In this document: one piece after another, positions 3,271 to 59,839 of the stretch
How the letters are laid out: each line of letters begins with the position of its first letter
Position numbering within the stretch: position 1 is the stretch's first letter
From: Mustelus asterias
Lineage: Eukaryota
Reading direction: 5' to 3'
Assembly (NCBI RefSeq): GCF_964213995.1
Contig: NW_027590224.1
Coordinates: forward strand, 310,001-374,000
Length of the DNA: 64,000 bases
The notes under the pieces: generated by a model
Databases searched by the model: none
Seen by the model: the letters and a program-made list of their open reading frames with translations, nothing else
Told to the model about the DNA's origin: nothing
Position numbers and translations under genes: made by a program

Positions 3271-5879
3271 GGAGGGTTGTAGGGGCTAGAGGAGGTTACA
3301 GAGATACGGAAGAGTGTAGGGACTGGAGGAGGTTACAGAGATAGGGAGGGGTATAGGGCTGGAGGAAGTTACAGAGATAGGGAAGGTTGTCGGGGCTGGA
3401 GGAGGTTACAGAATAGGGAGGGTTGTAGGGGCTGGAGGAGGTCACAGAGATAGGGAGGGGTGTACGGGCTGGAAGAGGGTACAGAGATAGGGAGGGTTGT
3501 AGGGATTAGAGGAGGTTACAGAGATAGGGAGGGGTGTAGGGGTTGGGGGAGGTTACAGAGATAGGGAGGGTTGTAGGGACTGGAGGAGGTTATAGAGATA
3601 GGGAGGGTTGTAGGGGCTGGAGGAGGTTACAGAGATAGGGAGGGGTGTAGGGCCTGGAGGACGTTACAGAGATAGGGAGGGTTGTAGAGGCTGAAGGAAG
3701 TTACAGAGATACGAAGGGTTGTAGGGGCTGGAGGAGGTTACAGAGATAGGGGTGTAGGGGCTGGAGGAGGTTACAGAGATAGGGAGGGTTGTAGGGGCTG
3801 GAGCTGGTTACAGAGATAGGGTTGTAGGGACTGGAGGAAGTTACAGAGATAAGGAGGGTTGTAGGGGCTGGAGGAGATTACAGAGATAGGGAGGGTTGTA
3901 GGGACTGGAGCAGGTTACAGAGATAGGGAGGGTTGTAGGGACTGGAGGAAGTTACAGAGATAAGGAGGGGTGTATGGGCTGGCGCACGTTACAGAGATAG
4001 AGAGGTGTGTAGGAGCTGGAGGAGGTTACAGAGATAGGGAGGGTTGTAGGGGCTGGAGGAGATTACAGAGATAGGGAGGGTTGTAGGGGCTGGAGCAGGT
4101 TACAGAGATAGGGAGGGTTGTAGGGACTGGAGGAAGTTACAGTGATAGGGAAGGTGGTCGGGGCTGGAGGAGGTTACAGAGATAGGGAGTGTTGTAGGGG
4201 CTGGAGGATGTTAGAGAGATAGGGAGGGTTGTAGGGACTGGAGGAGGTTACAGAGATAGGGAGGGTTGTAGGGGCTGGAGGAGATTACAGAGATAGGGAG
4301 GGTTGAAGGGGCTGGGGGAGGTTCCAGAGATAGGGAGGGGTGTTGGGGCTGGAGGAGGTTCCAGAGATAGGGAGGGTTGTAGGGGCTGGAGGACGTTACA
4401 GAGAGAGGGAGGGTTGTTGGGGCTGAAGGACGTTACAGAGATAGGGAGGGTTGTAGGGGCTGTTGGAGGTTACAGAGATAGAGGTGTAGGGGCTGGAGGA
4501 GATTACAGAGATAGGGAGGGTTGTAGGGGCTGGAGGAGGTTAGAGAGATAGGGAAGGTTGTCAGGGCTGGAGGAAGTTACAGAGATAGGGAGTGTTGTAG
4601 GGGCTGCAGGAGGTTACAGAATAGGGAGGGTTGTAGGGGCTGGAGGACGTTACAGAATAGGGAGGGTTGCAGAGGCTGGAGGAGGTTACAGAGGTAGGGA
4701 ATGGTGTAGAGGCTGGAGGACGTTACAGGGATAGGGAGGGTTGTAGGGGCTGGAGGAGGTTACAGAGATAGGGAGGGGTGTAGGGGCTGGAGGACATTAC
4801 AGAGATAGCGAGGGTTGTTGGGGCTGGAGGAGGTTACAGAGATAGGGAGTGGTGTAGGGGCTGGAGGACGTTACAGAGATAGGGAGGGTTGTAGGGGTTG
4901 GAGGAGGCTACATAGATAGGGGTGTGGGGGCTGGAGGAGATTACTGAGATAGGGAGGCTTGTCAGGGCTGGAGGAGGTTACAGAGATAGGGAGGAGTGTA
5001 GGGACTGTAGGAAGTTACAGAGATAGGGTTGTCGGGGCTGGAGGAGGTTACAGAGATGGAGAGGGGAATAGGGGCTGGAGGAGGTTACAGAATAGGGAGG
5101 GTTGCAGAGGCTGGAGGAGGTTACAGAATAGGGAGGGTTGTAGTGGCTGGAAGAGGTTACAGAGGTAGGGAATGGTGTAGAGGCTGGAGGACGTTACAGG
5201 GATAGGGAGGGTTGTAGGGGCTGGAGGAGATTACTGAGATAGGGAGGGTTGTCGGGGCTGGAGGAGGTTACAGAGATAGGGAGGGTTGTCGGGGCTGGAG
5301 GAGGTTACAGAGATAGGGAGTGGTGTAGGGGCTGGAGGACGTTACAGAGATAGGGTTGTAGAGGCTGAAGGATGTTACAGAGATAGGGGGGGCTGTAGGG
5401 GTTGGAGGAGGCTACATAGATAGGGATGTGGGGGCTGGAGGAGATTACTGAGATAGGGAGGGTTGTCGGGGCTGGAGGAGGTTACAGAGATAGGGAGGAG
5501 TGTAGGGACTGTAGGAAGTTACAGAGATAGGGTTGTCGGGGCTGGAGGAGGTTACAGAGATGGGGAGGGGAATAGGGGCTGGAGGAGGTTACAGAATAGG
5601 GAGGGTTGTAGGGGCTGGAGGAGGTTACAGAATCGGGAGGGTTGTAGGGGCTGTTTGAGGTTTCATAGATAGGGAGGGGTGTAGCGGCTGGAAGTGGGTT
5701 CAGAGATAGGGAGGGTTGCAGGGACTGGAGGAGGTTACAGAGATAGGGAGGGGTGTAAGGGCTGGAGGAGGTTACAGAGATAGGGAGGGTTGTAGGGGCT
5801 GGAGGAGGTTATAGAGATAGGGTGTAGGGGCTGGAGGAGGTTACAGAGATAGGGTGTGTTGTCGGGGCTGGAGGAGGTT
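3271..5879. repeat. 37-bp G-rich minisatellite, about 70 units, with a ~504-bp higher-order duplication
   Basis: Unit GAGATAGGGAGGGTTGTAGGGGCTGGAGGAGGTTACA. ORFs 4959-5168 and 5463-5672 are near-identical at a 504-bp offset. Confidence 0.97.
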
Positions 5880-6594
5880 TGTGGTGATACTATACCTTTA
5901 AGAAATGTATTTATACCATGTTTCTTGTCAGGTGTATGTTTAACATTCAGCTGTTTTTCATGGTTCCGATTTGTCTGCACCAGCCAGCCCACATGCTGAG
6001 AATGCGGGCTAATGATTGACCTTAGCTCCGGATGTGTTGTTTTAATCTGAGTTCATGCATATTTGTTTATTTTGGTTTCCCCTGGGGTTCAGAATCGGGT
6101 TTTGATCAGGGGTTGATTGACAGAGGCAGATCATGTGATTCGGCAGGTCTGAGCTTGCAGGGAAAAGCACAATTCTCTTTGATTTTAAACAGTCAGTTTC
6201 TGCTTGGTCCTGAAAGAGCAAGAGGTGTCACTCATTGTCTCCCTTTCTCCAGAGCTGTTCAAAAAGCTCTAAGACTGTTAAGAAGCACAAACATACCTGC
6301 GTGTCAGAGTTCAAGTCTCTCAGAGAAATGTTGTTTGATAGAGATAGGTCAGCAGTTAGGAATTGTATCTTGTCATGTTTAAATATTTCAACTTATAAAA
6401 TTTACACTAATTTATTCATGAACGTTAAACTGTGTTGTTAAATAAAGTTTGTTTTAATAGAAGCTTCCTCGTGTGTCAGTAGAATCACAGCAGATAAGGA
6501 GTGAGACACCTCACACTAATGCCAAAATACAAAAACCTGGGATCTAGCTGGGCTTCATAACATACTTTGCAGTTTCTGCTCTGGTACTCTGACA
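5880..6594 (+). mobile_element. 5' LTR of the Gmr1-type Gypsy element
   Basis: TG...CA ends and AATAAA near 6441. Followed by TGGGGGCTC (tRNA-Pro-like primer-binding site) at about 6600. Start resembles the solo LTRs at 16037 and 38749. Confidence 0.8.
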
Positions 6595-7892
6595 AAAACT
6601 GGGGGCTCTGACGGCATTAAAAACTATAATTCCTTGTTTGGTTTGGGATTATTGAACTCAAAGACAGTGGATGTTGAGTATTGGTGTTTTCTTTCCAGGT
6701 ATTGTTTTCGGTTCGTGTAATAAGGGGCTCTTTCAATGGCTAAAGTTTTTCTGGGTGTGAAATCACTCATTCGGAGCGGTTTACAAAAGATGGTCAAACC
6801 AAGGCTTTTGGAATTGGCAAACAAGCTGCAGTTGACTTTGCCTGAAGGGTGAAAAGGTGGAGTTATTCACTGTGATAGCTCAACATTTAAAATCACCAGT
6901 AACACAGTCAGAAGCATTGAGATTAGCTAGAATTCAGTTACAAATGAAATAGCTGGCATTAGAAGCAAAAGAAAGGCAGAGAATGATAATTTCAGCAGAA
7001 CAAAGAGAGAACGAATTAAAGGAAGCAAAATTGTGACAGTTTGAATTGCAATTAACAGCAGCAGAAAAAGAAAGAATAGCAATTGCAGAACGAACTGCAA
7101 CAAAGAGAGAAAAAAGGGAGAGAGATTTTGAACTTCAGAAAATGGAACTGAAAAGTGAGCTTAAACTGGTGGAGGCAAAGATAAAGGTTGGAAGTTATGA
7201 TGAGGGTAGTGAGGAAACACAAACCCATTAGAGTTAGAGGTCTGATGAGGATCTGTTTAAATATGTTCAAGCACTGCTAAGGTTTGATGAGAAGGATGTA
7301 GAAGCCTTTTTCATTTCATTTGAGAAAGTAGTTAAACAATAAAATGGCCACAAATCATGTGGGTATTGTTGGTTCAAACGAAGTTGGCAGGTAGAGCTAG
7401 TGAGGTGTTTGCACCACCATCAGAGGAGGTATCTATGGATTATGATGAGGTGAATAAAGCCATCTTAGGTGCATATGAACTAGTGCCAGCAGCCTACAAA
7501 CAGGCTTAGAAATCAAAAGAAGGAACCAGGTCAAACTTATATAGCATTTGAAAGAATCAAACAAAGTAACTTGGACAGGTGGATAAGAGCACTGAAAATA
7601 GACCAGACATTTGGCACTCTTAGGGAAATGGTTATTTTAGAGGAGTTTAAAAATTAACTTCCCGAAGTAATGAGATCTCACGCGGAAGAGCAGAAGGTTA
7701 AAACTGCAAGACTGGCAGCAGAAATGGCAGAAGATTCTGAGTTGGTGCATAAATCAAGATTTGGGTTTCGACATCAATTTCAATCTGTGAGGGATAGAAA
7801 CTGGGGAAAAGAGAAATCATCAGGAGTAAAGGCAAAGGAGATTTTATTGGAGATAGTAAAGATAGTTTACCTCAGGTTAAAAATGAAACATA

Positions 7893-10635
7893 TGAACATA
7901 GAACATAACAGCGCAGTGAAGGCCCTTCGGCCCTCGATGTTGCGCCAACCTGAGAAACCAATCTAAAGCCCATCTAACCTACACTATTCCAATATCATCC
8001 ATATGTTTATCTAATGACCATTTAAATGCCCTTAATGTTGGCGAGTCCACTACTGTTGCAGGCAGGGCATTCCACGCCCTTACTACTCTCTGAGTAAAGA
8101 ATCTACCTCTTACATCTGTCCTATATCTATCACCCCTCAATTTAAAGCTATGTCCCCTCGTGCAAGCATCACCATCCGAGGGAAAAGGCTCTCACTGTCC
8201 ACCCTATCTAATCCTCTGATCATCTTGTATGCCTCTATTAAGTCACCTCTTAACCATCTTCTCTCTAACGAAAACAGCCTCAAATCCCTCAGCCTTTCCT
8301 CATAAGACCTTCCCTCCATACCAGGCAACATCCTGGTAAATCTCCTCTGCACCCTTTCCAATGCTTCGACATCCTTCCTATAATGTGGCGACCGCACCAG
8401 AGTTTTATACAGCTCTGGTGCGGCCAGAGTTAAGAAGAGCCAGGAGGGGACATGAGAAGCCTTTGGCAGGTAGGATCAAGGAAAACCCTAAAGCTTTCTA
8501 TAGGTTTGTCAGGAGTAAAAGAATGACAAGGGTAAGATTAGGGCCAGTCAAGGACAGGAGTGGGAAGTTGTGCGTGGAGTCTGAAGAGATAGGAGAGGCA
8601 CTAAATGAATATATTTCGTCGGTATTCACACTTGAGAGGGACAGTGTTGTTGAGGGGAGTACTGAGATGCAGGCTGTTGGACTGGATGGGATTGATGTTC
8701 ATAAGGAAAAGGTGTTAGCAATTCTGGAAAGGGTAAAAATAGATAGGTCCCCTGGGCCGGATGGGATTTATCCTAGGATTCTCTGGGAGGCTAGAAAGGA
8801 GATTGCAGAGCCTTTGGCTTTGATCTTTGTGTCGTCATTGTCTACAGGAACAGTGCCAGAAGACTGGAGGATAGCAAATGTTGTCCCCTTGTTCAAGAAG
8901 GGGAGTAGGGACAATCCTGGTAATTATAGACCGGTGAGCCTTACTTCTGTTGTGGGCAAAGTATTGGAAAGGATTATAGGAGATAGGATTTATAATCACC
9001 TAGAAAGGAATAATTTGATTAGGGATAGTCAGCACGGTTTTGTGAAGGGTAGGTCATGCCTCACAAACCTTATTGAGTTCTTTGAGAAGGTGACCAAAGA
9101 GGTGGATGAGGGTAAAGTGGTTGATGTGGTGTACATGGATTTCAGCAAAGCGTTTGATAAGGTTCCCCATGGTAAGCTTTTACAGAAAATACGGACACAT
9201 GGGATTGAGGGTGATTTAGTGGTTTGGATCAGGAATTGGCTAGCTGTCAGAAAACAAAGGGTGGTGGTTGATGGGAAATATTCATCCTGGAGTTCAGTTA
9301 CTAGTGGTGTACCGCAAGGATTTGTTTTGGGGCCACTGCTGTTTGTCATTTTTATTAATGACTTGGATGAGGGCGTGGAAGGATGGATTAGTAAATTTGC
9401 GGATGACACTAAAGTCGGTGGAGTTGTAGACAGTGTGGAGGGAAGTGGCAGGTTACAGAGGGACATAGATAAGCTGCAGAGCTGGGCTGAGAGGTGGCAA
9501 ATGGAGTTTAATGCGGAAAAGTGTGAGGTGGTTCACTTTGGAAGGAGTAACAGGAATACAGAGTACTGGGCTAATGGTAAGATACTTGGTAGTGTGGATG
9601 AACAGAGGGATCTGGGTGTCCATGTGCATAGATCCCTGAAAGTTGGCACCCAGGTTGATAGGGTTGTTAAGAAGGCATATGGTGTGTTAGCTTTTATTGG
9701 TAGAGAGATTGAGTTTCGGAGCCAGGAGGTCATGCTGCAACTGTACAAAACTCTGGTGCGGCCGCATTTGGAGTATTGCGTACAGTTCTGGTCGCCGTAT
9801 TATAGGAAAGATGTGGAAGTGTTGGAAAGGGTGCAGAGGAGATTTACCAGGATGTTGCCTGGGATGGTGGGAAAATCGTATGAGGAAAGGCTGAGGGGCT
9901 TGAGGTTGTTTTCGTTAGAGAGAAGAAGGTTAAGAGGTGACTTGATAGAGGCATACAAGATGATCAGAGGATTAGATAGGGTGGATAGTGAGAGCCTTTT
10001 TCCTTGGATGGTGTTGGCTAGCACGAGGGGACATAGCTTTAAATTGAGGGATGAGAGATATAGGACAGATGTTAGAGGTAGGTTCTTTACTCAGAGAGTA
10101 GTAAGGGCGTGGAATGCCCTGCCTGCAGCAGTGGTGGACTCGTCAACGTTGAGAGCGTTCAAGTGGTTATTGGATAAACATATGGATGATATTGGAATAG
10201 TGTAGATTAGAGGGGCTTTAGATTGGTACCACTGGTCGGCGCAACATCGAGGGCCGAACGGCCTGTACTGCGCTGTAATGTTCTATGTTCTAACATGACC
10301 TCAAGGCTTCAAAACTCAATCCCTTTACCAATAAAAGATAACACACCATACGCGTTCTTAACAACCCTATCAACCTAGATGCCAACTTTCAGGGATCTAT
10401 GCACATGGACACCGAGATCTCTCTGCTCATCCACCCTACCAAGTATCTTACCATTAGCCCAGTACACTGTATTCCTGTTACTCCTTCCACAGTGAATCAC
10501 CTCACACTTTTCCGCATTAAACTCCATTTGCCACCTCTCAGCCCAGCTCTGCAGCTTATCTATGTCCCTCTGTAACCTGCAACATTCTTCCGCACTATCC
10601 ACACCTCCACCGACTTTAGTGTCACCGACTTTAGT
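7893..10635 (-). mobile_element. CR1 3' fragment (minus) inserted in Gypsy gag, itself split by a plus-strand CR1
   Basis: 3' tail (GAACATA)n at 7893. Minus ORFs 8137-8397 and 10375-10692 are contiguous parts of the CR1 RT C-terminus. Gypsy sequence resumes at TGAAGGTGGAAGAG. Confidence 0.85.
8431..10292 (+). mobile_element. Young 5'-truncated CR1 LINE with an uninterrupted RT ORF
   Basis: 614-aa ORF 8361-10205 with NYRPVSLTS, QHGF, YMDFSKAFDKV, GVPQG and KFADDTK motifs. No endonuclease domain. 3' tail ATGTTCTATGTTCTA. Confidence 0.95.
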
Positions 10636-12886
10636 GAAGGTGGAAGAGAAATTTAAAACCTCAGATATTTTCATTGTAACAAATTTGGACACACAAAGTT
10701 GCAGTGTTGGTGTTTTAAGAAAAGCACTGGGAAGACAGAGGTGGTAAAACAGGATAAGCCAGCAGGGCTTGTTATGGTGCTAAAAGATGCCACAGTTGAA
10801 ACTGAAGAGGTGCAAAAGAATGTACAGCCTGTTCAGGGATTGGTTGGTTAAAAAAAGTGCCAGATTTCTTTAAAGAATTTACTTGTGTGGGTAAAGTTAC
10901 TCATGTGCTTGGAGGAATAGGTAAAGAAGTTAAAATTTAAAGAGATATGGGAGCAAGTCAATCTTTAATGTTGAGAGATAAGGAGATATGTAGTTTGGAA
11001 AGAGTATTGCCAGAAAAGGTGGTAGCGTGTGGAATTCATGGTGAAAAGAATCGTATTCCATTATGTAAGGTACGGTTGGAGAGTCCGGTTAAAAGTGATG
11101 AAGTGGTGGTAGGAGTAATAGAGAAATTATTTTTTTCAGGGATTCAGTTAATCCTGGGTAATGATATAACTAGATCACAGTGATACCTACTGAAGTTGAA
11201 AAGCCAATGGAAAATCAAACAAGATCACAAAGCCACAGGTTGAGACTGGAGGAGGAGAAATTGGAGAGTAAAGATAAGGAGGTTGAGGTACAGTTATCAG
11301 AAAAAATCTTTGACCAGATGGTTGATCAAGAACAGGAGGCGGATCAAGCGGATATCTTTAGTTCAGGGAAGTTGGCAGAATTACAACTGAAAGATGCAGA
11401 GATAAAGTAGTATCAGAAAGCATAGACAGAAGGAGAATCTGAGTGTATACTGGAATATTATTACATTAGAAATAATGTCTTAATGAGGAAGTGGAGATCT
11501 TTACATATTCAGGCAGATGAAAAATGGGCAGAAGTTCATCAAGTTGCATTACCGGTGGGTTATAGAAAGGTTTTGCAGGTGGCATATGAGGTTCCAATAG
11601 GAGGTCATTTGGGAGTAAGGAAAACTCAGGCAAAAATAGAAAAATTCTTTTATTGGCCTGGACTGCATAGGGAAGTGTTGAATTTTGCCAGATGTTTCTC
11701 GCATGTCAGGTGACAGGAAAACATCAAGCGGGCATCAAACCAGCACCTTTAATACCCATTCCCACATTTGAAGAACCTTTCACGAGGATCCTAACTGATT
11801 GTGTGGGACCCCTGCCCAAAATGAAATGTGAGAATCATATCTGTTGACCATAATGGATGTGTCTACTAGATTTCCTGAGGCCTTTGCATTACGTAATATA
11901 ACAGCGAAAATGATTGTCGAGGAATCACTTAAAGCTTCTACCGGATGGGGACTGTCCACAGAAATCCAATAAGATCAAGGATCCAATTTTATGGCAAAGT
12001 TATTTCGGGAAGTTATGGATAGCTTAGGAGTAAGGCAATTTGAAACAACTGCATATTATCCAGAATCACAGGGAGCATTAGAACTGTGTCAAACTTTGAA
12101 GACCATGTTGAGGGCCTGTAGTCAGGGTTATCCAGAAAATTGGGACAAAGAAATTCCATTTGTACTTTTTGCAATTACAGATGCACCTCCTGAAGCAACA
12201 AAATTCAAACCATTTGAATTGATTTTTGGTCATGAGAGGATCATTTAAATTGATCAAGGAGCAATTTGGTGAGTCAGTGTTCTGAGACTACATTGTTGAG
12301 ACTACATTATTGGACTATGTGTCAAATTTTAGGGAGAGATTAGCTCAGGCTGGAGAGTTGGCTCGACAGCATTTAAAAGGGGCACACCAGGCGATAAAAA
12401 AGCAGATAAGAGATCAAATATTCACAGTTTTGTTAGCGGGGAGAAAGTATTAGTACTATTACCAGTGGTAGGTGAACCATTAGAAGCAAGATTTAATCTG
12501 TCTTATCAAATTGAAAAAAGATTAATTGAGGTGAATTATTTGATAAGAAGGCAGATAGAAAGAAGAATCACAGAGTGTGGCATATTAATATATTTTAATA
12601 GAGAAGGACAGCAGAAGCAGGATGTGTTAATTGTTACAGCTCAGAGAGAAAAGATAAATCCAGATGATTCTGAATTTGACATTCCTCAAGTCAAATTGGA
12701 CAATGAGGAAGTAATCAGAAATTGGGATAAATTACTGAGTTACCTTCCAGAGGGTTACAATCGTGTAGAGCTATATGTAGGAACAAACTGGGAAATACCA
12801 AAGTAATTGTGCATGATGTAGATGTAGGAAATGTTGTTCCAATTTAACAACATACGTATCAACTTATTCCACTCAAGTTTGCAAAG

Positions 12887-13224
12887 GCTCAGGAGAAGCT
12901 GACATTTACTCAGACTGAGATGCAGCAGCTGGAAGTTTCAATCAAACACTACGATGGACTGGCTGATAGTTACAAATCTCGGTTAATGAAGACACAAATG
13001 GAGACATGAAATTGACAAATACAGAAAAGGAGAACAAGCTATTGGACGATGAATAAGGAAAGTAAGCAGGTATGGAGACAGATGCAAGAAAAGTTGCTGA
13101 TTTGGAGCCTGTTCCTGAGTTGTTGAAATTAACTGAGCATGAACTGCAGGACTGTCAACAGCAGCTTGTCATCTATAAGAACAAAAATGTAGATCAGTTG
13201 GTAGTCATATGTGATCTCAAGGTG
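12887..13224 (+). pseudogene. ODF2: Intron-less ODF2(-like) mRNA fragment captured inside the Gypsy element
   Basis: Translates (with frameshifts) to AQEKLTFTQTEMQQLEVSIKHYDGLADSYKSRLMKTQME...EKENKLL..MNKESKQVWRQMQEKL/ADLEPVPELLKLTEHELQDCQQQLVIYKNKNVDQLVVICDLK. This matches recalled ODF2 LEVQQLKASVKNYEGMIDNYKSQVMKTRLE...KENKILKDEMNKEIEAARRQFQSQLADLQQLPDILKITEAKLAECQDQLQGYERKNIDLTAIISDLR. ODF2L paralog not excluded. Confidence 0.8.
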
Positions 13225-13945
13225 GTGATGAGGAGCAGAAGCATTTTACTATCACAGACAGAAGAAAAGGACGAAGCTGCGAAGTAAGTCTGTTTGGTGA
13301 AACTGTACCATCACCGCCTAATGAACTGCTGAAATAATGAATATGCAGCTTACACAGCTGCAGACGCCCAGGGAAACAGTACTGTTCATAACTGATGTTC
13401 AAGTAAATTATGATGGTTTTCGCAACAGCATGGCTACCACAATGATCGCTAAAACCATAATTACAACAAATCCTGGCACCAAAGAAGACAATCTGCAATA
13501 TACCTTTGAAAAGAATACACAGAAAGTGATGAGGAAGATCCAGAGCAAACAAATGAATTAATAAACTATATTGGGCGGCACGGTAACACAGTGGTTAGCA
13601 CTGCTGCTTCACAGCTCCAGGGTCCCGGGTTCGATTCCCAGCTCGGGTCACTGTCTGTGTGGAGTTTGCACATTCTCCTCGTGTCTGCGTGGGTTTCCTC
13701 CGGGTGCTCCGGTTTCCTCCCACATCCAAAGATGTGCAGGTTAGGTTGATTGGCCAGGTTAAAAATTGCCCCTTAGAATCCTGGGATGCGTAGATTAGTG
13801 GGTAAATATGTGGGGGTAGGGCCTGGGTGGGATTGTGGTCGGTGCAGACTCGATGGGCCGAATGGCCTCCTTCTGCACTGTAGGGTTTCTATGATTTCTA
13901 TGATTGCAACAGAAAGATATACAATTAGAAAGAATTTTGAATGTA
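13225..13945 (+). pseudogene. MEIOB: Intron-less MEIOB mRNA fragment (OB fold) captured inside the Gypsy element, split by a later SINE
   Basis: EQKHFTITDRRKGRSCEVSLFGET...[43 protein letters not shown] matches recalled MEIOB [24 protein letters not shown]...[43 protein letters not shown]. Weakly continues after the SINE (DIQLERILNV). Confidence 0.85.
13573..13905 (+). mobile_element. V-SINE (HE1-like), tRNA head + V domain + CR1-type tail
   Basis: A/B-box head (GGTTCGATTCC), V core GTGTGGAGTTTGCACATTCTCC...GGTTTCCTCCCAC, tail TTTCTATGATTTCTATGA. Confidence 0.9.
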
Positions 13946-14025
13946 CCATTTGACAACAGTAGGGGGAGTTGGACTACTTGACCGAGGAACTAAGGCCAGT
14001 TATAAAGAAAGGGGACAGGGATATC

Positions 14026-14372
14026 ATGACCCTTCTGGATGGCCCTAAACACATCTGTGAAGTTGAGGAAACATGCAAGGGGACAGATTCTCTTTGACAA
14101 AGTCTGTGAGCAGCTCAACCTGATTTCACTTTGACATTTTAGAACTCTGAAAATCAAAATCAAAGCGAAGGGAATTACAAAGCAAATCCAAAGTGGTTTG
14201 TAGCATTTGCATTCAATGTAAAGTTTTGCCCTCCAGGTCCTGCCCAGCTCTTTGAGGACATCACCAGGATTAATTTACAATCGTGACAACGGATCCAGGC
14301 TCAGACTCAGAATCAAAGCAGGGTCAAGAACAGAGGGTGACCTCTGAAAAGAAAGAGGAAGCAGCTGAACAA
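14026..14372 (+). pseudogene. EPB41L3: Intron-less EPB41L3 (protein 4.1B)-like fragment with scrambled order: FERM exons, then the N-terminal exon
   Basis: 14026-14267 gives TLLDGPKHICEVE/KHARGQILFDKVCEQLNL...ITKQIQSG...AFNVKFCPPGPAQLFEDITR (4.1-family FERM N-lobe). 14283-14372 gives (M)TTDPGSDSESKQGQEQ, like the 4.1B N-terminus MTTESGSDSESKPDQE. Confidence 0.82.
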
Positions 14373-14551
14373 CAGCCATTTAATTTGAAGATTATAAATG
14401 TGGCAGGAAGAGAGAATGTGACTGCAGATGCTTTATCACGACTTTGCTCTAAAAGGATAGAAAGATCAATGTTGGAAAAGACTGGACGATGATCCTGTTT
14501 GATTTTGCATGTTTAGTGCCAGTATTGCTGTGAATCCTGAGAATTTCTTAT

Positions 14552-14700
14552 GTAAGAGTTTTAACAACACCAGGTTAAAGTCCAACAGGTTTATTTGGTA
14601 GCAAATGCCATTAGCTTTCGGAGCCCTGTTGGACTTTAACCTGGTGTTGTTAAAATTCTTACTGTGTTTACCCCAGTCCAACGCCGGCATCTCCACATCA
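14552..14700. mobile_element. Penelope-derived short inverted-repeat insertion
   Basis: Head-to-head copies of AACACCAGGTTAAAGTCCAACAGG, flanked by the direct repeat AATTTCTTATGTA. Confidence 0.8.
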
Positions 14701-16036: not shown

Positions 16037-16808
16037 TGTGACGATACTGTGCCTTTAAGACATGTATTTTAGTCATGTTTCTGTGCAGGATCTGTTTTAG
16101 CAGTTTTTTGTATTATTAGTGCCATTCTGTCTATAACTGGCACCCTGTATTGTTACTGCAGCAGCATAATTGCTTCTAATTGCTAGAATGTTTGTTTTAT
16201 TCTGGACTAATGCAGTTCTGTTGTTTTTAGTGGTTCCCCTGGGGTTTTACAGAGTAGGATTAGATTGATTGACAGGGAAGATCATATGACTGGATGGAGC
16301 TAGGCTTATACAGAGAATTCAAGGTTAGTTATTGTTTGGGAGCTGCAGAGAACTCTGGCGACTGGGAGCTGCCAGAGACTAGGTTTACTTCTCTGACGTT
16401 CTGCTGTTTGAGGATATATCCTTCTCTGGAAACTGCTGTCTGGATCTAAAAGTGTTAAAAGGCTGGAAATCTCACACCATGTGAGCATACTTTACTGTCA
16501 ACTAATTCTGAAGAAGGGTGTATGTCTATTTGGGTATTGCTTTAAATTGAAACTACAGAGATTGCTAGTTGTTAAGTGTTATACTTTGTCATGTTAAAGT
16601 ATTTTAATTGGTAAAAGTCAAGCTAATTATTTTAGCTATATTCTAACTATTCTTAAACACAGTTTGTTTTGATAAAAGCTTCCTAGTGGGTCAACTGCAT
16701 CATGCCTGGAGCGAAACATGCTCACCCTATTGCCAAACCCAAAGGCAAAAATTGGGGTCTTGGCTAACTTCATAATATACCTTGGAGTTTCTGATCGGCT
16801 CCCTAACA
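16037..16808 (+). mobile_element. Solo Gypsy LTR with 4-bp TSD GGAT, inserted in a LINE 3' fragment (about 15870-17070)
   Basis: TGTGACGATAC...CCCTAACA, with GGAT on both sides. Similar to the LTRs at 5880 and 38749. Confidence 0.88.
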
Positions 16809-38748: not shown

Positions 38749-39613
38749 TGTGACGATGCTTTACCTTTAAGAAATGTATTTTAATCATATTTCTCTGCAG
38801 GATGTTTCGAGGAGTCCCTGGCATTTCTCACAGCCGTTTTGTCTACAACTGGTAACCTCTATTGTTACTGAAGCAGTATAATTGATACCAATTAATCTGA
38901 ACTAATGCAATTGTCTGTTTAGTATTTCCCTGGGATTGCAGAGTAGAGTTTGATTGGGGTGTTTGACAGGTCAGGTCATATGACTGGGGACAGCTCGGCT
39001 TTCACAGAGGATTCCAGCTTAGTTGCTGTTTTTTTTCAGATGCTCTTTGGAGTTGAGAGAGAGCAGTGTCTGCTTTCTACTCTCTGGAGCTGGAGATTCT
39101 GCTGTCTGAGTGTTGCTGTTTTGGAAGCTGTAGGGAGAGAGGTATCCTTTCTTGTCTCTGAAGTCTGAAGACTGGAAGCTGCTAGAAACTGGGTTTACTT
39201 CTCTGCTTAGCTGCCTTGAGGGTATATCCTTGTCTGAAAACTGCTGTTTGATATTTTGTCCAGAAGTGTTACAAAACTGGAAATCTAATATCATGTGAGC
39301 ATACCTGTTTTAGTGTTAACTAATTCTGAAGAAGGGTGTATGTCTATGGGGTATTGCTTTTAAATTGGAACAACAGAGATAGCTAGCTGTTAAGAATTAC
39401 ACTGTGTCATGTTTAAGTTTTGCAATTGGTAAAAGTTATGCTAATTCTTTTCATTATATTCTAACTGTGTTCTTAAATAAACTGTTTGATAAAAGGTTCC
39501 TAGTGGGTCACTTGAATCATACCTGGAGTGAAACACCTTATGCTCAAATGTAAAACTTAGGGTCTAGGCTAACTTCACAAAACACCTTGGAGTTTCTGGC
39601 CTGGGTCATTACA
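38749..39613 (+). mobile_element. Solo Gypsy LTR with TSD CCAC, nested in the Harbinger
   Basis: TGTGACGATGC...GGTCATTACA, with CCAC on both sides. Homologous to 16037-16808. Confidence 0.88.
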
Positions 39614-55312: not shown

Positions 55313-55927
55313 ACAAAGAGACCTCAAAAATGGCCATTCTGATCACATCACCTGTCTCTCAATGATGAGTTTTCAATCAATGATAACTGATTAGCTCAGG
55401 TATGGACAGAGCTTGATTATTGTATCTTGGCCTAGGTGATCCATTTCTTTAATGTCCCAGCTACCACTTCTGAATGGACCATTCCTCCTTGTGAGAAGCT
55501 CAGAAGAAAATTTCAATGCCTTCTATACAACATTCTATATTGTTGTGGTAGACTTTCTGTCTCTGTCTGAAAGATATCTTTACAGAAATGCAAATGGTGA
55601 GAGACAAGTTACAAGCTTCAGTTTATCTTTGAAATTATTCTTGTAAAATTCCACAGGAGGTTGTCTTGACATGTCCCAGTTGTAATCTACATTGAACACT
55701 TGCAGAAACTGACCAACTTGTAATGCCAGGTGTCAGGTGACTTGTGGCAGCCACCTTAAGTAAATGTCTTTACTTCTTTTAAAAAGATCCTTTTAAAGAA
55801 CAGAGTCAGTACAAATTGAGCTGCCATTTTTACAGGCTGGGCTTGCAGAGTCAGGAAATCCCCCAATTGTGCACACCCGATTATCAATCCAGGATTACTG
55901 GTCTCGTACCATAACCAGCGCACTAAC

Positions 55928-58900
55928 TATGATATATGTGTATATAATATATATGTTGGGGGGTTGGGGCGTGGACTGCCCCTTTAAGAGTATGGATCAG
56001 GTAAAACTTGGAGAATATCTTGAAGAGGTTGCAAGAGCATGGCCTACAGTCAAGAAAGAGAAATGTGAGTTCTTCAAGGACTCCATTGAATACCTAGGTC
56101 ATGTAATTGATGGCGATGGGTCACACAAGGCATACAAGAGAATGGAGGCCATCGTGAAGGCCCCAAGACCAGACAACATGTCCAAATTGAGGTCGTTTTG
56201 GGACTTATCAATTACTATGGCAAGTTGGTTCCAAATCTGGCAATGGTGTTGAAACTAATGCACCGGTTGCTGGGGAAAGATGGCCATGGAAGTGGACAAA
56301 AGACTGTGAAGAGGCCTACTGGGAGGTAAAGCTGGCTTTGAAGAGATTGGAAATGCTGGTTCACTTCAACCCAAAGTTACCACTGTAGCTGGCATGCGAC
56401 ACATCGTCCTATGAGGTTGGGGCTGTCCTATCTCACATTATGCCAAACGGGGAAGAACGATCTATAGTATTCACTTCTCGATCACTGATGAAAGCTGAGG
56501 AAAAGTATGCTCAAGTGGAAAAAAAAAGACTTTGGCATCTTCTTTGGTGTCAAGAAATTTTTATCATTTCCTTTATGGTAGGAATTTTGTGCTTCTAACA
56601 GGCCGTTGACATCCATCTTAGGACTGTACACTAGGATACTGTCTATGGCAGCTCGATTGTAGAAGCGGGCGTTGGTGCTGTCAGCATAACCATGCAAGAC
56701 CCGGTACCATCAGTCAGAGAAACACGGCAATGTGGATGCTCTGTCAAGGCTGCCTTAATTGAGATAAGGATGGTCCCGGCTGGAATTTGATAATAATGTA
56801 CTTCACACAGGAAAGATAAAATTCCGGTAACCCCTAAACGAATGCTGAATGCCACCCAGAACAATCCGATCATGAGCCAAGTAGTGGACCTTGTCCTGAG
56901 AGGGAGATTGAGTAGTAGAAACCATCTGGAGTTGCAGCCATATATGTCCTGAAGATGGGAGTTGTCCGTTTTGGATGGATGTTTCTTATGGGGCACGAGA
57001 GTCATCATTCCCCCATCCTTAGGAGGAAAGTTGCTGGAACAGGTGCACCAAGGGCATCCTAGGGTGGTGCCAATGAAAGAATAGCAAGAAGTTATTTTTG
57101 GTGGCCAAATCTAGATGCAGAGTAAGTAGTCTCACAACACCAGGTTAAAGTCCAACAGGTTTATTTGATAGCATAAGCTTTCGAAGCGCTGCTGCGTCAT
57201 CAGATGAGTGGCACTCAAGCTTGTGCTACCAAATAAACTTGTTGGACTTTAACCTGGTGTTGTGAGACTATTTACTGTGCCTACCCCAGTCCAACACCGG
57301 CAACTCCACATCAATCTAGATGCATTAATTGAAGAAAAAGTGGGATTATGAGAATCCTGCACTTTGGTACAGAAGGCGCCCTTGTCACCTCTTCATCCAT
57401 GGGAATAGCCCCAATCACCATGGCAGCATATCCATATTGATCTTGCTGGGCCAGTAGAAGGGCAGATATTCTTGGTGGTAGTGGATGCCCACTCCAAGTG
57501 GTCGGAGGTCATGATTATGAAGTCCACGTCGGTGGAGTCAATGCTAGACAAACTCGATGTGATATTTGCCCGGTTTGGTAATCCGGAACGAGTAATCAGT
57601 GACAGTGCGCCCAAGTTTGTGGCACTTGGAGCACCATAGAATCAGACACACGAGGTTGGCACCGTATCACCCGGCGACATACAGCCACCTGAGGTCTGGT
57701 GGAACGATTTGTTCAGAACCTGAAATAGTCTCTGAAGTGGTCGCAAGGGGAGGGGTCGTTCAGGCAGCGGATAAATAAATTCCTGAGTATGTACCGCAAC
57801 GCACCACAACTCAATGTTCATTGGCTTCATTGATGTTCAACTGAAAATTAAGAACCACATTTGACCTGCTACCGGCAGAGGAGATCCAAGAAGTTGTTGA
57901 ATGGAACCTAGAGGGACAGATGACCAGAACAGCAGGAAGTGAGAAGTTGAGGACTTTTCAGAGAGGGAAGTTTGTTCTGGCCAGGTATTATGCTTCTGGA
58001 GAAAAGTGCGTACCAGCTCCATTGTTACACAAACAGGAACTTTGTCCTATACAGTACAGACCAGGGATGAGGTGGTCTGGAAGAGACATGCAGGCCAGTT
58101 GGTTGCAACAGGGCACCAGAGCCGGGAAAGTCCACAAACAATGGAACCGTCCACGTTGGACCCAGTGGGGTTGCCCGAGCCTACTATTTCAGAGTCAGAG
58201 TTGATCACCTCAAGGGATCAACAGCCACCCGAGGTCCAAGAGAAAGGGACCCTCATGCTGAACAGTTCAATTACTAGGGGGCACAGGTTTAAGGTGCGAG
58301 GCTCAAAGTTTAAAGGATATGTACGAGGCAGATTGTTTTTACACAGAGGGTGGTGGGTGCCTGGAACGCGTTGCCGGGGGAGATAGTGACTTTTAAGGGG
58401 CGTCTTGACAAGTACATGAATAGGATGGGAATAGAGGGATATGGCCCCCGGAAGGGTAGGGGGTTTTAGTTAAGTCAGGCAGCATGATCGGTGCAGGCTT
58501 GGAGGGCCAAAGGGCCTGTTCCTGTGCTGTAATTTTCTTTGTTCTTTTTTTAGTAGGATCTTCCAGAATCCCGGGAATCTATTTTGGAAGAGATTCCAGC
58601 AACAAGGAAACAATCTCGACAAAACCGCCATCCTCCTGATAGACTCCATTTTGTCCATGTGAACTGTCAAAAGGGATTTTACGTTGAGGATTTGGGGGAG
58701 ATCAGGATATCAGCCTTGATCATAATGAATGGTGGAGCGGGCTCAAAGGGTTGAATGGCCTACTGCTTCCAGTTTCTAAAACTATGGTAGTTTGTAATGC
58801 TCTGTGTAAAGAGTAGTCACCTGTAAACATGTTGTATATATATATATATTATTTTTATATATATATATTTTTTTTTTTCAGTTGGGAAATTTTGGATTTA

Positions 58901-59145
58901 AGGGGGAGTGGTGTGATGTCTGTACATTGGGGTTTGGGGTGCAGACCGCCCTTTTAAGAGTATGGGATAAGGTAACTCCTGGTTATTAGCTCTGCCCAGT
59001 ATGGGACCCATACCGTCAGGTCCAGGTAGTCCTGGACCTGACAGTGAATGCGTACACACCTTCAATAAACAGCTCCCAGTATTGAAATATTCAAGCCCAC
59101 CTTGTGATTCCTTAGGCCCCTTAGTCCACAGGAGTGTACATAAAA
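55928..59145 (+). mobile_element. Internally deleted Gypsy LTR retrotransposon in the IgV-TM intron, 5-bp TSD CTAAC
   Basis: RT end (KCEFFKDSIEYLGHVI), RNase H (LACD.S.Y.VGAVLSH), integrase (HIDLAGPVEG..FLVVVDAHSKW). PPT AAGGGGGAGTGG at 58900; 3' LTR 58912-59145 matches a truncated 5' LTR at 55928-56005. Nested Penelope insertion 57120-57312 (TSD AATCTAGATGCA) and CR1 tail 58265-58550. Confidence 0.85.
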
Positions 59146-59184
59146 CTAACAAAGCTGTAAAATCAGAGATTAAATGCAGAGTAC

Positions 59185-59517
59185 CTGAAACAGAAACCTC
59201 TCCTGTTACAGAGAGTTTAACATGTTGATGAAACCTCACATCCGTCCTCTTGTAAATCTGACACTCGTACTCGCTCTGGTCTGACTCCCTGAGGTCAGAG
59301 AGCAGAACTGACCAGTTTCCTTGTTCCAGTTGATCTCTGAACAGCTTTGTTCTGTTTCTGAACCGTGGATCTTGTTCCCTCAAATCATCGTTTCCATTGA
59401 CAAACTTGTGTAAAATTTCATGCTCTGATATCTGCCAAATCACCAGTAAATCTGAGACTGGGACATTCCCGTTGTAGGTACAGGGCAGCACAGCCTGCTT
59501 CCCAAGGAACCCGGAAA
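59185..59517 (-). CDS. IgV-set exon, B7 family-like (CD276/ICOSLG/CD86-like)
   Basis: 333-bp phase 1-1 exon (CCCAG acceptor, CAG|GTAC donor). Reads VSGFLGKQAVLPC...LLVIWQ...QDPRFRNRTKLF...GNWSVLLSDLRESDQSEYECQI...VKLSVTG; intact. Confidence 0.88.
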
Positions 59518-59839
59518 CTGGGACAGGGAAAGATTGAAAGTATTTATCCACAGATATAACCTCCCTGCTGGTACATTACATCCCAAGCTTCACATGGTTA
59601 CACTGCCATGCTTGATTCACAAGAAGCACTGATCAATACCTCACTGCTTTCATTTGTGTGGGAAGGTTAAAGCTCAGGCATTGAGGGCCTTCAACTAAAC
59701 CCAGCTTGTGCTGGATATTTGTAAGCACAGAGTAGCTGGACAGCACTTTGAATCACATGTTTTCCAATTGTCCACATGCTGGGAGAACACATCAGGATAT
59801 TGGTCACCTCCCCTTGGGAGAAAAATCACAGACTGGGGG

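What the first reader, a model, noticed from the sequence alone, without database searches (positions are those of the whole stretch)
12805..14445. Gmr1-type Gypsy element whose RT/RNase H is replaced by a mosaic of captured germline mRNAs (ODF2, MEIOB, EPB41L3)
Seen: pol reads into the RT N-terminus (VHDVDVGN.VPI.QH.Y.L.PLK) and switches in frame at about 12887 to an ODF2-like coiled coil. At about 13225 it switches to a MEIOB-like OB fold, and at about 14026 to protein-4.1 sequence. It rejoins the element at 14373 at the RNase H C-terminus (QPFNLKI...ADALSR). All inserts are in the element's sense orientation, lack introns and have no poly(A) or TSD at the junctions. Established: ODF2 is a sperm-tail/centriole protein, MEIOB is meiosis-specific, and LTR elements can copy co-packaged host RNAs by RT template switching. 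Inference: serial template switching in testis particles produced a non-autonomous cargo element that records part of the germline transcriptome. It may have spread as a family.
Basis: partly seen in the sequence, partly recalled or inferred. Interest (0 to 1): 0.93.

Follow-up and report, generated by a model that had tools for sequence, protein, structure and literature searches.

The report
Retrotransposon carrying three circular RNA copies
An old shark retrotransposon family lost its copying enzyme and instead carries pieces of three host genes whose exons are joined back-to-front exactly at splice sites, the signature of circular RNAs, which points to how circular RNAs get written back into genomes.

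Summary
Window 12893-14376 replaces about 370 aa of RT/RNase H in a Gmr1-type Gypsy element with intronless ODF2, MEIOB and EPB41L3 sequence. It is one copy of a dispersed, decayed family (55 distinct loci examined; 337-629 first-look candidates). A downstream splice donor is joined to an upstream acceptor, and all six sites match the parental genes in this genome to the base. These are back-splice junctions, so the templates were most likely three circular RNAs, not mRNAs. The gene-to-gene switches whose parental exon was seen lie mid-exon, at short shared words, as RT template switching predicts. Simpler copies survive: ODF2 only, then ODF2+EPB41L3, then MEIOB nested inside ODF2, then an internal deletion (this copy, which also has a young SINE at 13574-13902). 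The pol frame stays open into the EPB41L3 piece, helped by a one-base insertion that offsets the ODF2 back-splice, then ends at a shared frameshift. Precedents are mouse circRFWD2 pseudogenes near LTRs and multi-gene LTR retrocopies. I found no report of serial multi-circle capture. Intragenic trans-splicing is not excluded.

The parts
5880..6594 (+). 5' LTR (TG...CA)
   Evidence: sequence; 71% over 745 aligned bases to the family LTR at 16037-16808
6600..6617 (+). primer-binding-site-like stretch just after the LTR (tRNA-Pro type by recall, not tested)
6730..7890 (+). gag, broken by stops and frameshifts
   Evidence: tblastn of intact relatives, matches within 6917-7840
7894..10624 (.). later LINE insertion(s) splitting gag; includes a 621-aa RT ORF at 8340-10205
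10625..11180 (+). gag end (zinc-knuckle region) and protease remnant
11219..12605 (+). integrase, upstream of RT (Gmr1 order), broken
   Evidence: Pfam Integrase_H2C2 E 4.4e-10
12731..12892 (+). start of the RT region; ends at the first switch
   Evidence: aligns to P0225 1129-1171 and P0227 1128-1166, just before RVT_1
12893..13240 (+). ODF2 aa 533-653: three spliced exons plus the start of a fourth; entry is mid-exon
   Evidence: 75/88, 77/87 and 135/152 identical to parental exons at G000:C13
13233..13567 (+). MEIOB aa ~181-299, ending exactly at a splice donor
   Evidence: 81/91 to the last exon
13568..13573 (+). start of the upstream MEIOB exon (aa 44): back-splice junction at 13567|13568
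   Evidence: acceptor at G000:C23:21697245
13574..13902 (+). young high-copy SINE inserted later, target duplication ATTG; absent from other copies
   Evidence: 97-100% matches genome-wide
13903..13932 (+). rest of the MEIOB aa 45-51 piece, then, after a deletion shared by most copies, the last bases of the ODF2 exon ending at aa 676 (donor)
13933..14023 (+). upstream ODF2 exon, aa 385-414, starting exactly at its acceptor: back-splice junction at 13932|13933
   Evidence: 76/91 to the parental exon
14024..14267 (+). EPB41L3 aa ~114-202 (FERM N-lobe), ending exactly at a splice donor
   Evidence: 68/75 to the last exon
14268..14376 (+). EPB41L3 ATG-bearing exon from its acceptor, with 15 nt of 5' UTR: back-splice junction at 14267|14268
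   Evidence: 101/109 to the parental exon
14372..14516 (+). RNase H C-terminal tail and start of the 3' UTR; likeness to the family ends here and no 3' LTR of this copy was found

Best explanation
A Gmr1-type Gypsy element copied host circular RNAs that were packaged in its particles. During minus-strand synthesis RT jumped at short shared words from element RNA onto a circle, ran across the back-splice junction, and jumped off before completing one turn. This happened in separate rounds: (1) circODF2 replaced nearly all of RT-RNase H; (2) circEPB41L3 replaced the 3' part of the ODF2 piece, with a return onto RNA that still had the RNase H tail; (3) circMEIOB was inserted inside the ODF2 piece; (4) an internal deletion gave the commonest form. 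The RT-less element kept its LTRs, primer site, gag, protease and integrase and was copied in trans by RT-bearing relatives into hundreds of loci, which then decayed. Shown: gene identities, scrambled order, exact splice sites, mid-exon switches, shared junctions, existence of the four forms. Inferred: circular rather than trans-spliced templates, the order of the forms, packaging, copying in trans, germline tissue.
For: Six parental splice sites, each with one match at the parental locus. ODF2: donor C13:4053609 and acceptor about 11.7 kb upstream. MEIOB: donor C23:21734940 and acceptor 37.7 kb upstream. EPB41L3: donor C7:85961815 and acceptor about 59 kb upstream. Of 55 distinct loci, the scrambled junction is spanned in 45 (ODF2), 41 (MEIOB) and 48 (EPB41L3), and has no indel within 4 nt in 40, 38 and 42. 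Each captured arc lies wholly inside its circle and is shorter than one turn (about 64-78%). Among scored genome hits, strong matches outside the circles occur only at the parental genes. Other switches are mid-exon. Where both parents are in hand the shared words are 8 nt (common return) and 5 nt (window's return). Intermediates: L092 is ODF2 only; L083 and L091 are ODF2+EPB41L3; 11 of 50 distinct loci are long form. RNase-H-bearing relatives with the same tail exist (L096, L097). Copies are 84% identical to the parent and 80% to each other, with a star-like tree.
Against: A trans-spliced RNA has the same junction sequence, and arcs shorter than one turn cannot separate the two. No rolling-circle repeat was seen in any locus. 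The tree of the shared ODF2 piece has 0 of 40 strongly supported branches, so it neither confirms nor refutes the order of forms. The ODF2-only stage rests on one locus, in which a 27-nt deletion removed the junction itself. The MEIOB-less copies could be deletions between repeated words rather than precursors, although they keep ODF2 aa 654-663, which MEIOB-bearing copies lack, and L083 and L092 keep the parental residues at aa ~402-408. The shared words at three switches are inferred, because the MEIOB, EPB41L3 and RT parents of those spots were not obtained. No RNA evidence that these circles exist in sharks today.
Confidence: 0.85

Rival explanations
1. The scrambled junctions came from intragenic trans-spliced linear RNAs, captured by the same template switching.
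For: Trans-spliced RNAs give identical junctions and are mistaken for circles (PMC10450196, abstract read). No copy shows more than one turn of a circle.
Against: No out-of-circle exon was seen in any of the three genes. Three independent trans-spliced templates are needed. All three circles have typical sizes of 0.6-0.9 kb, and one starts at the first coding exon, a common circle boundary (recalled).
Confidence: 0.08
2. Linear mRNAs were captured, and the scrambling arose from RT jumping back within one mRNA or from later DNA rearrangement.
For: RT jumps are frequent, and this family shows several later deletions and two return points.
Against: All three scrambled joints fall exactly on a donor and an acceptor, in exons of 76-186 nt. 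Chance is about 1 in 10,000 per joint (rough estimate from exon length). The other switches whose parental exon was seen lie mid-exon. At the MEIOB joint the preceding exon's end, inferred from protein, shares no terminal bases with the donor end.
Confidence: 0.03
3. The ancestral parental genes carried tandem exon duplications, so their linear mRNAs held the scrambled order.
For: Partial gene duplications do produce such junctions (general knowledge).
Against: Each splice-site pattern has one match at the parental locus. Shark orthologue proteins shown have no such repeats. It would be needed in three unlinked genes.
Confidence: 0.02
4. Add-on to the best explanation: only captures that kept the pol frame open spread well (to avoid decay of an RNA with a long untranslated tail, or to keep polyprotein processing), so the cargo was filtered for frame but not for protein function.
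For: In-frame counts: pol to ODF2 17 of 20, ODF2 to MEIOB 22 of 24, MEIOB back-splice 31 of 34, internal deletion 15 of 23, ODF2 to EPB41L3 25 of 36. The ODF2 back-splice is phase 2 to phase 0, and 8 of the 9 copies printed carry one extra base just upstream that offsets it; so does ODF2-only L092. Stop-free stretches of 160-190 aa cross several joints (L031, L061).
Against: The frame breaks about 13 codons into EPB41L3: only 8 of 36 copies are in frame between aa 115 and 132. The stop after the EPB41L3 back-splice is ancestral: 35 of 45 copies have TG at that site. Shared words between these genes are in frame 37% (ODF2 x MEIOB) and 52% (ODF2 x EPB41L3) of the time at 6 nt, so chance is not one third. 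Many amino-acid changes arose in the element lineage, so protein function was not conserved.
Confidence: 0.5

Closest known systems
circRNA-derived pseudogenes, especially 33 mouse circRFWD2 copies (Dong et al. 2016, PMC4897178; whole text read, supplements searched for three terms)
   Same: Reversed exon-exon junction in genomic DNA, no poly(A), many dispersed copies, association with LTR sequence (MMERVK10C-int is marked in the figure legend).
   Different: There it is one circle per pseudogene, the LTR link is by proximity, and the mechanism is called 'mysterious'. Here three circles from three genes sit inside one element, one nested in another, with switch points resolved, intermediates surviving and several hundred candidate loci, in a shark.
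LTR-mediated retroposition (Tan et al. 2016, PMC5131818; 12 passages read)
   Same: Internal ORF replaced by host sequence, microsimilarity at switches, multi-gene chimeras (one mouse case with four genes), further rounds as non-autonomous elements, often in frame.
   Different: Their templates are mRNAs; 'circular' and 'circRNA' occur 0 times in the main text. Their cases are mostly young retrocopies with one or a few insertion sites. Supplements not seen.
Maize Bs1 (as cited in PMC5131818)
   Same: LTR element carrying pieces of three unlinked host genes.
   Different: Plant element; no back-splice junctions mentioned in the passage read; the primary papers were not read.
Gmr1-like Ty3/Gypsy elements
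   Same: gag-PR-IN-RT-RNase H order, SCAN-type gag in relatives, RNase H tail.
   Different: RT and RNase H cores are absent, so this is a non-autonomous derivative.

Membership tests
Gmr1-like Gypsy | integrase upstream of RT in pol | tested here: met
   window IN 11219-12605 precedes the RT-start match 12779-12907; nearest intact relatives have IN before RVT_1 and RNase H. The definition comes from a cited title in PMC4131045 and recall.
Gmr1-like Gypsy | LTRs with TG...CA ends and short target duplication | tested here: inconclusive
   5' LTR present; this copy's 3' LTR not found; a solo LTR of the family at 16037-16808 has a 4-bp duplication
Gmr1-like Gypsy | RT phylogeny within the Gmr1 clade | not testable with these tools
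   the RT core is absent from the element; no named Gmr1 reference was available, relatives P0172/P0225 are unnamed
Gmr1-like Gypsy (autonomous) | intact RT and RNase H | tested here: not met
   about 370 aa replaced by cargo
circRNA-derived pseudogene | exon-exon junction in reversed order, at splice sites | tested here: met
   three junctions, six sites
circRNA-derived pseudogene | only exons that lie inside the circle; no poly(A) | tested here: met
   limited to the candidates those calls scored
circRNA-derived pseudogene | matching circRNA expressed in the species | not testable with these tools
   no RNA data were obtained
LTR-mediated retrocopy | host sequence replaces part of the internal ORF, intronless | tested here: met
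LTR-mediated retrocopy | microsimilarity at switch points | tested here: inconclusive
   shown with both parents for the return to pol (8 and 5 nt); for the other four switches only one parent's DNA was in hand
LTR-mediated retrocopy | further spread with the same junctions at unlinked loci | tested here: met
   55 distinct loci on many contigs
LINE-mediated processed pseudogene | poly(A) tail and target duplication around each piece | tested here: not met

The most novel reading that the evidence does not exclude
In the germline, LTR particles draw on circular RNAs more readily than on the linear mRNAs of the same genes (three captures out of three cross a back-splice junction). LTR template switching is then a main route for circRNA retroposition, and element cargo is a datable fossil record of ancient germline circles, filtered for keeping the pol frame open.
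Probability: 0.45. Interest if true: 0.93.

Novelty: new variant of a known kind. Interest (0 to 1): 0.87.

Why it matters
How circular RNAs are retrotransposed was left open when circRNA-derived pseudogenes were described: they lack the poly(A) tail that L1 needs. This family shows the process at base resolution and in stages, with a testable mechanism: packaging in LTR particles and template switching at short shared words. It records specific back-splice events of ODF2, MEIOB and EPB41L3 from an ancient shark germline, which can be compared with circles made today. It suggests rescanning LTR and ERV cargo in other genomes for scrambled exons, which colinear retrocopy pipelines would break up or misread. 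Hundreds of sense-orientation fragments of fertility genes inside transposon copies could also feed small RNAs against those genes (untested).

Tried and rejected
Read-through idea: I suspected that the stop after the EPB41L3 back-splice had been lost, so that one frame ran to the natural pol end. Rejected: TG in 35 of 45 copies, CG in 3, and an earlier shared frameshift. A fourth gene at 13933-14023: rejected, it is ODF2. The LTR at 16037-16808 as this copy's 3' LTR: rejected, it has its own 4-bp duplication inside a LINE. G000:C8:37.81 Mb (L084) and C3:130.77 Mb (L093) as MEIOB-less copies: rejected, both hold MEIOB. A tree to order the forms was unresolved (13 of 55 loci dropped for short or poor ODF2 coverage). 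The in-frame control used three wrongly phased exons and was redone; the identity figures included spurious alignments and are superseded. The MEIOB-to-ODF2 anchor was mis-set and counted 0; that joint is judged in frame from M70-to-O391 distances (3 of 6 multiples of three) and the L061 and L031 open stretches. Sequencing runs: no RNA holder listed. Four runs of two other organisms (B, C) hold 21-27% of the words, a lead that the locus is shared with relatives, but no reads were laid, so neither this nor the assembly was checked. Pfam found no family for the window's own ODF2 or MEIOB fragments at curated cut-offs. Literature: a search for 'circEPB41L3' gave 0 papers. Searches (listings and abstract starts, except the papers named as read) showed no report of multi-circle capture by an LTR element or of this shark family; subscription journals are not covered. 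Earlier scan findings: none.
Full report
Observation. The window lies at G000:C192:310001-374000 in a 3.68-Gb genome; the nearest proteins are from sharks and rays. From 5880 the window holds an LTR, gag, a LINE insertion, protease, integrase and the start of RT. Intact relatives have integrase before RT and RNase H, and about 370 aa of their RT-RNase H are missing here. In the gap lie ODF2, MEIOB and EPB41L3 sequences, 85-93% identical to the seven parental exons of this genome that they cover over 75 nt or more. They are intronless and have no poly(A) or target duplication. A SINE at 13574-13902, with 97-100% matches elsewhere and an ATTG duplication, is a later insertion.

It is a family. 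The two halves of the cargo each found about 40 scored loci, from 495 and 337 first-look candidates; a MEIOB protein search had 629 candidates, 88 scored. These are lower bounds, not copy numbers. I examined 55 distinct loci. In 42 of them with enough ODF2 coverage, copies are 84% identical to the parent (median) and 80% to each other. The tree is star-like, with end branches of 0.11 and no strongly supported inner branch. This fits an old expansion followed by neutral decay. At ODF2 aa 540, 549 and 554 most copies keep the residue of the outgroup sharks where the present gene has changed, so capture predates those changes. I have no calibrated date.

The key finding: all three pieces are exon-scrambled. 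Mapped to shark proteins, copies read ODF2 532-653, MEIOB ~181-299, MEIOB 44-104, ODF2 ~664-676, ODF2 385-414, EPB41L3 114-202, EPB41L3 1-~35. I located the parental genes (ODF2 on C13, MEIOB on C23, EPB41L3 on C7) and read the flanks. Each scrambled joint joins the last base before a GT donor to the first base after an AG acceptor of an upstream exon, 11.7, 37.7 and about 59 kb upstream. The donor and MEIOB acceptor patterns presupposed GT or AG, but each gave its match at the independently located parental gene, and the flanking introns were then read. The two or three extra hits are one likely family copy and two likely paralogues, family copies and one unexamined 1-mismatch site. Of 55 loci, 45, 41 and 48 span the ODF2, MEIOB and EPB41L3 joints, and 40, 38 and 42 have no indel within 4 nt. 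The window itself failed that automated test for ODF2 and MEIOB because of the SINE and a small deletion, but its joints are exact on direct alignment. The EPB41L3 joint even keeps the 15 nt of 5' UTR before the ATG. Each arc stays inside its circle and covers about two thirds to three quarters of it; MEIOB exon aa 110-176, inside the circle but outside the arc, is absent.

The other joints differ in kind. The entry into ODF2 is 21 nt into an exon, the exit from the second ODF2 piece is mid-exon, and the exit from EPB41L3 is mid-exon. Where both parents were available, the common return to pol uses 8 shared bases and the window's variant uses 5. The window's return point is shared by L062, so the chimera recombined more than once with RNAs that still had RNase H. 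Such relatives exist (L096, L097). For the remaining switches shared words are likely from the protein sequences but were not measured.

Stages. L092 carries only ODF2, running to aa 465, and rejoins at the very end of pol; its back-splice joint is removed by a 27-nt deletion, but the order is kept. L083 and L091 carry ODF2 unbroken to aa 676 and then EPB41L3, without MEIOB. Eleven of 50 loci have the long MEIOB arc; most others, like the window, share an internal deletion. These loci were picked by likeness to the window or to parental proteins, so the proportions are not a census. The simplest order is ODF2, then EPB41L3, then MEIOB nested in ODF2, then deletion; the tree does not test it.

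Reading frame. The pol frame runs through the first five measured joints in most copies (17/20, 22/24, 31/34, 15/23, 25/36). The ODF2 back-splice is out of frame by nature, and 8 of 9 copies printed carry one extra base just upstream that offsets it. Against a strict rule: the frame breaks early in EPB41L3 in most copies (8 of 36 in frame), the stop after the third back-splice is ancestral, shared words are in frame 37-52% of the time by chance, and amino acids were not conserved. I put selection for an open frame at even odds.

Mechanism. Most likely (0.85), circular RNAs were packaged with element RNA, and RT switched onto them at short shared words, crossed the back-splice junction and left before one full turn. 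The RT-less product was then copied in trans. A linear mRNA cannot supply such a joint, whereas an arc covering about 70% of a circle will usually include it. Trans-splicing gives the same joint (PMC10450196, abstract) and remains at about 0.08. Germline origin is required for inheritance; testis is plausible because MEIOB and ODF2 are germ-cell genes (recalled) and human testis is second only to brain in circRNA number (review PMC7141194, passage).

Comparison. Dong et al. 2016 (PMC4897178; whole text; supplements searched for three terms) described 33 mouse circRFWD2 pseudogenes near LTR sequence and left the mechanism open. Tan et al. 2016 (PMC5131818; passages) established LTR template switching and multi-gene retrocopies but never mention circular RNA in the main text; their supplements were not seen and could hold scrambled cases. 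A 2025 review still calls circRNA-derived pseudogenes rare and cites the 2016 letter and one review (PMC12747553; passage). My searches found no report joining the two, or of this family; coverage excludes most subscription journals.

Verdict. Real, a family, and a new variant of a known kind: serial capture of three circular RNAs by one LTR lineage, with surviving intermediates. Not checked: raw-read support for this locus, and present-day circles. Interest 0.87.

Noticed in passing
G000:C15:80.5-84.4 Mb: 32 of 91 MEIOB-protein hits cluster here, many with the same span and stop pattern, which suggests that one family copy sits inside a unit amplified by segmental or tandem duplication.
   Followed up: no
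window 3271-5879: 37-bp tandem repeat, 71.7 copies, 84% matches, ending exactly at the 5' LTR.
   Followed up: partly
window 16037-16808 and 38749-39604: Two more LTRs of the same family; the first is a solo LTR with a GGAT duplication inside a LINE, and the two are 82% alike, more than either is to the 5' LTR.
   Followed up: partly
window 8340-10205: 621-aa open LINE RT frame inserted in gag, with an inverted partial duplicate at 7894-8393 and 10294-10624.
   Followed up: no
window 14552-14700: Short repeat with internal inverted symmetry, present many times in the window; MITE- or SINE-like.
   Followed up: no
window 55797-57624: Remnant of a second Gypsy element with the usual RT-RNase H-IN order.
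   Followed up: no
window 58898-59575: Ig V-set-like exon with a B7/butyrophilin-like look (label recalled, not tested).
   Followed up: no
G000:C21:71458671 and C20:62032297: Likely EPB41-family paralogues that share the same donor position after the EDITR codons.
   Followed up: no
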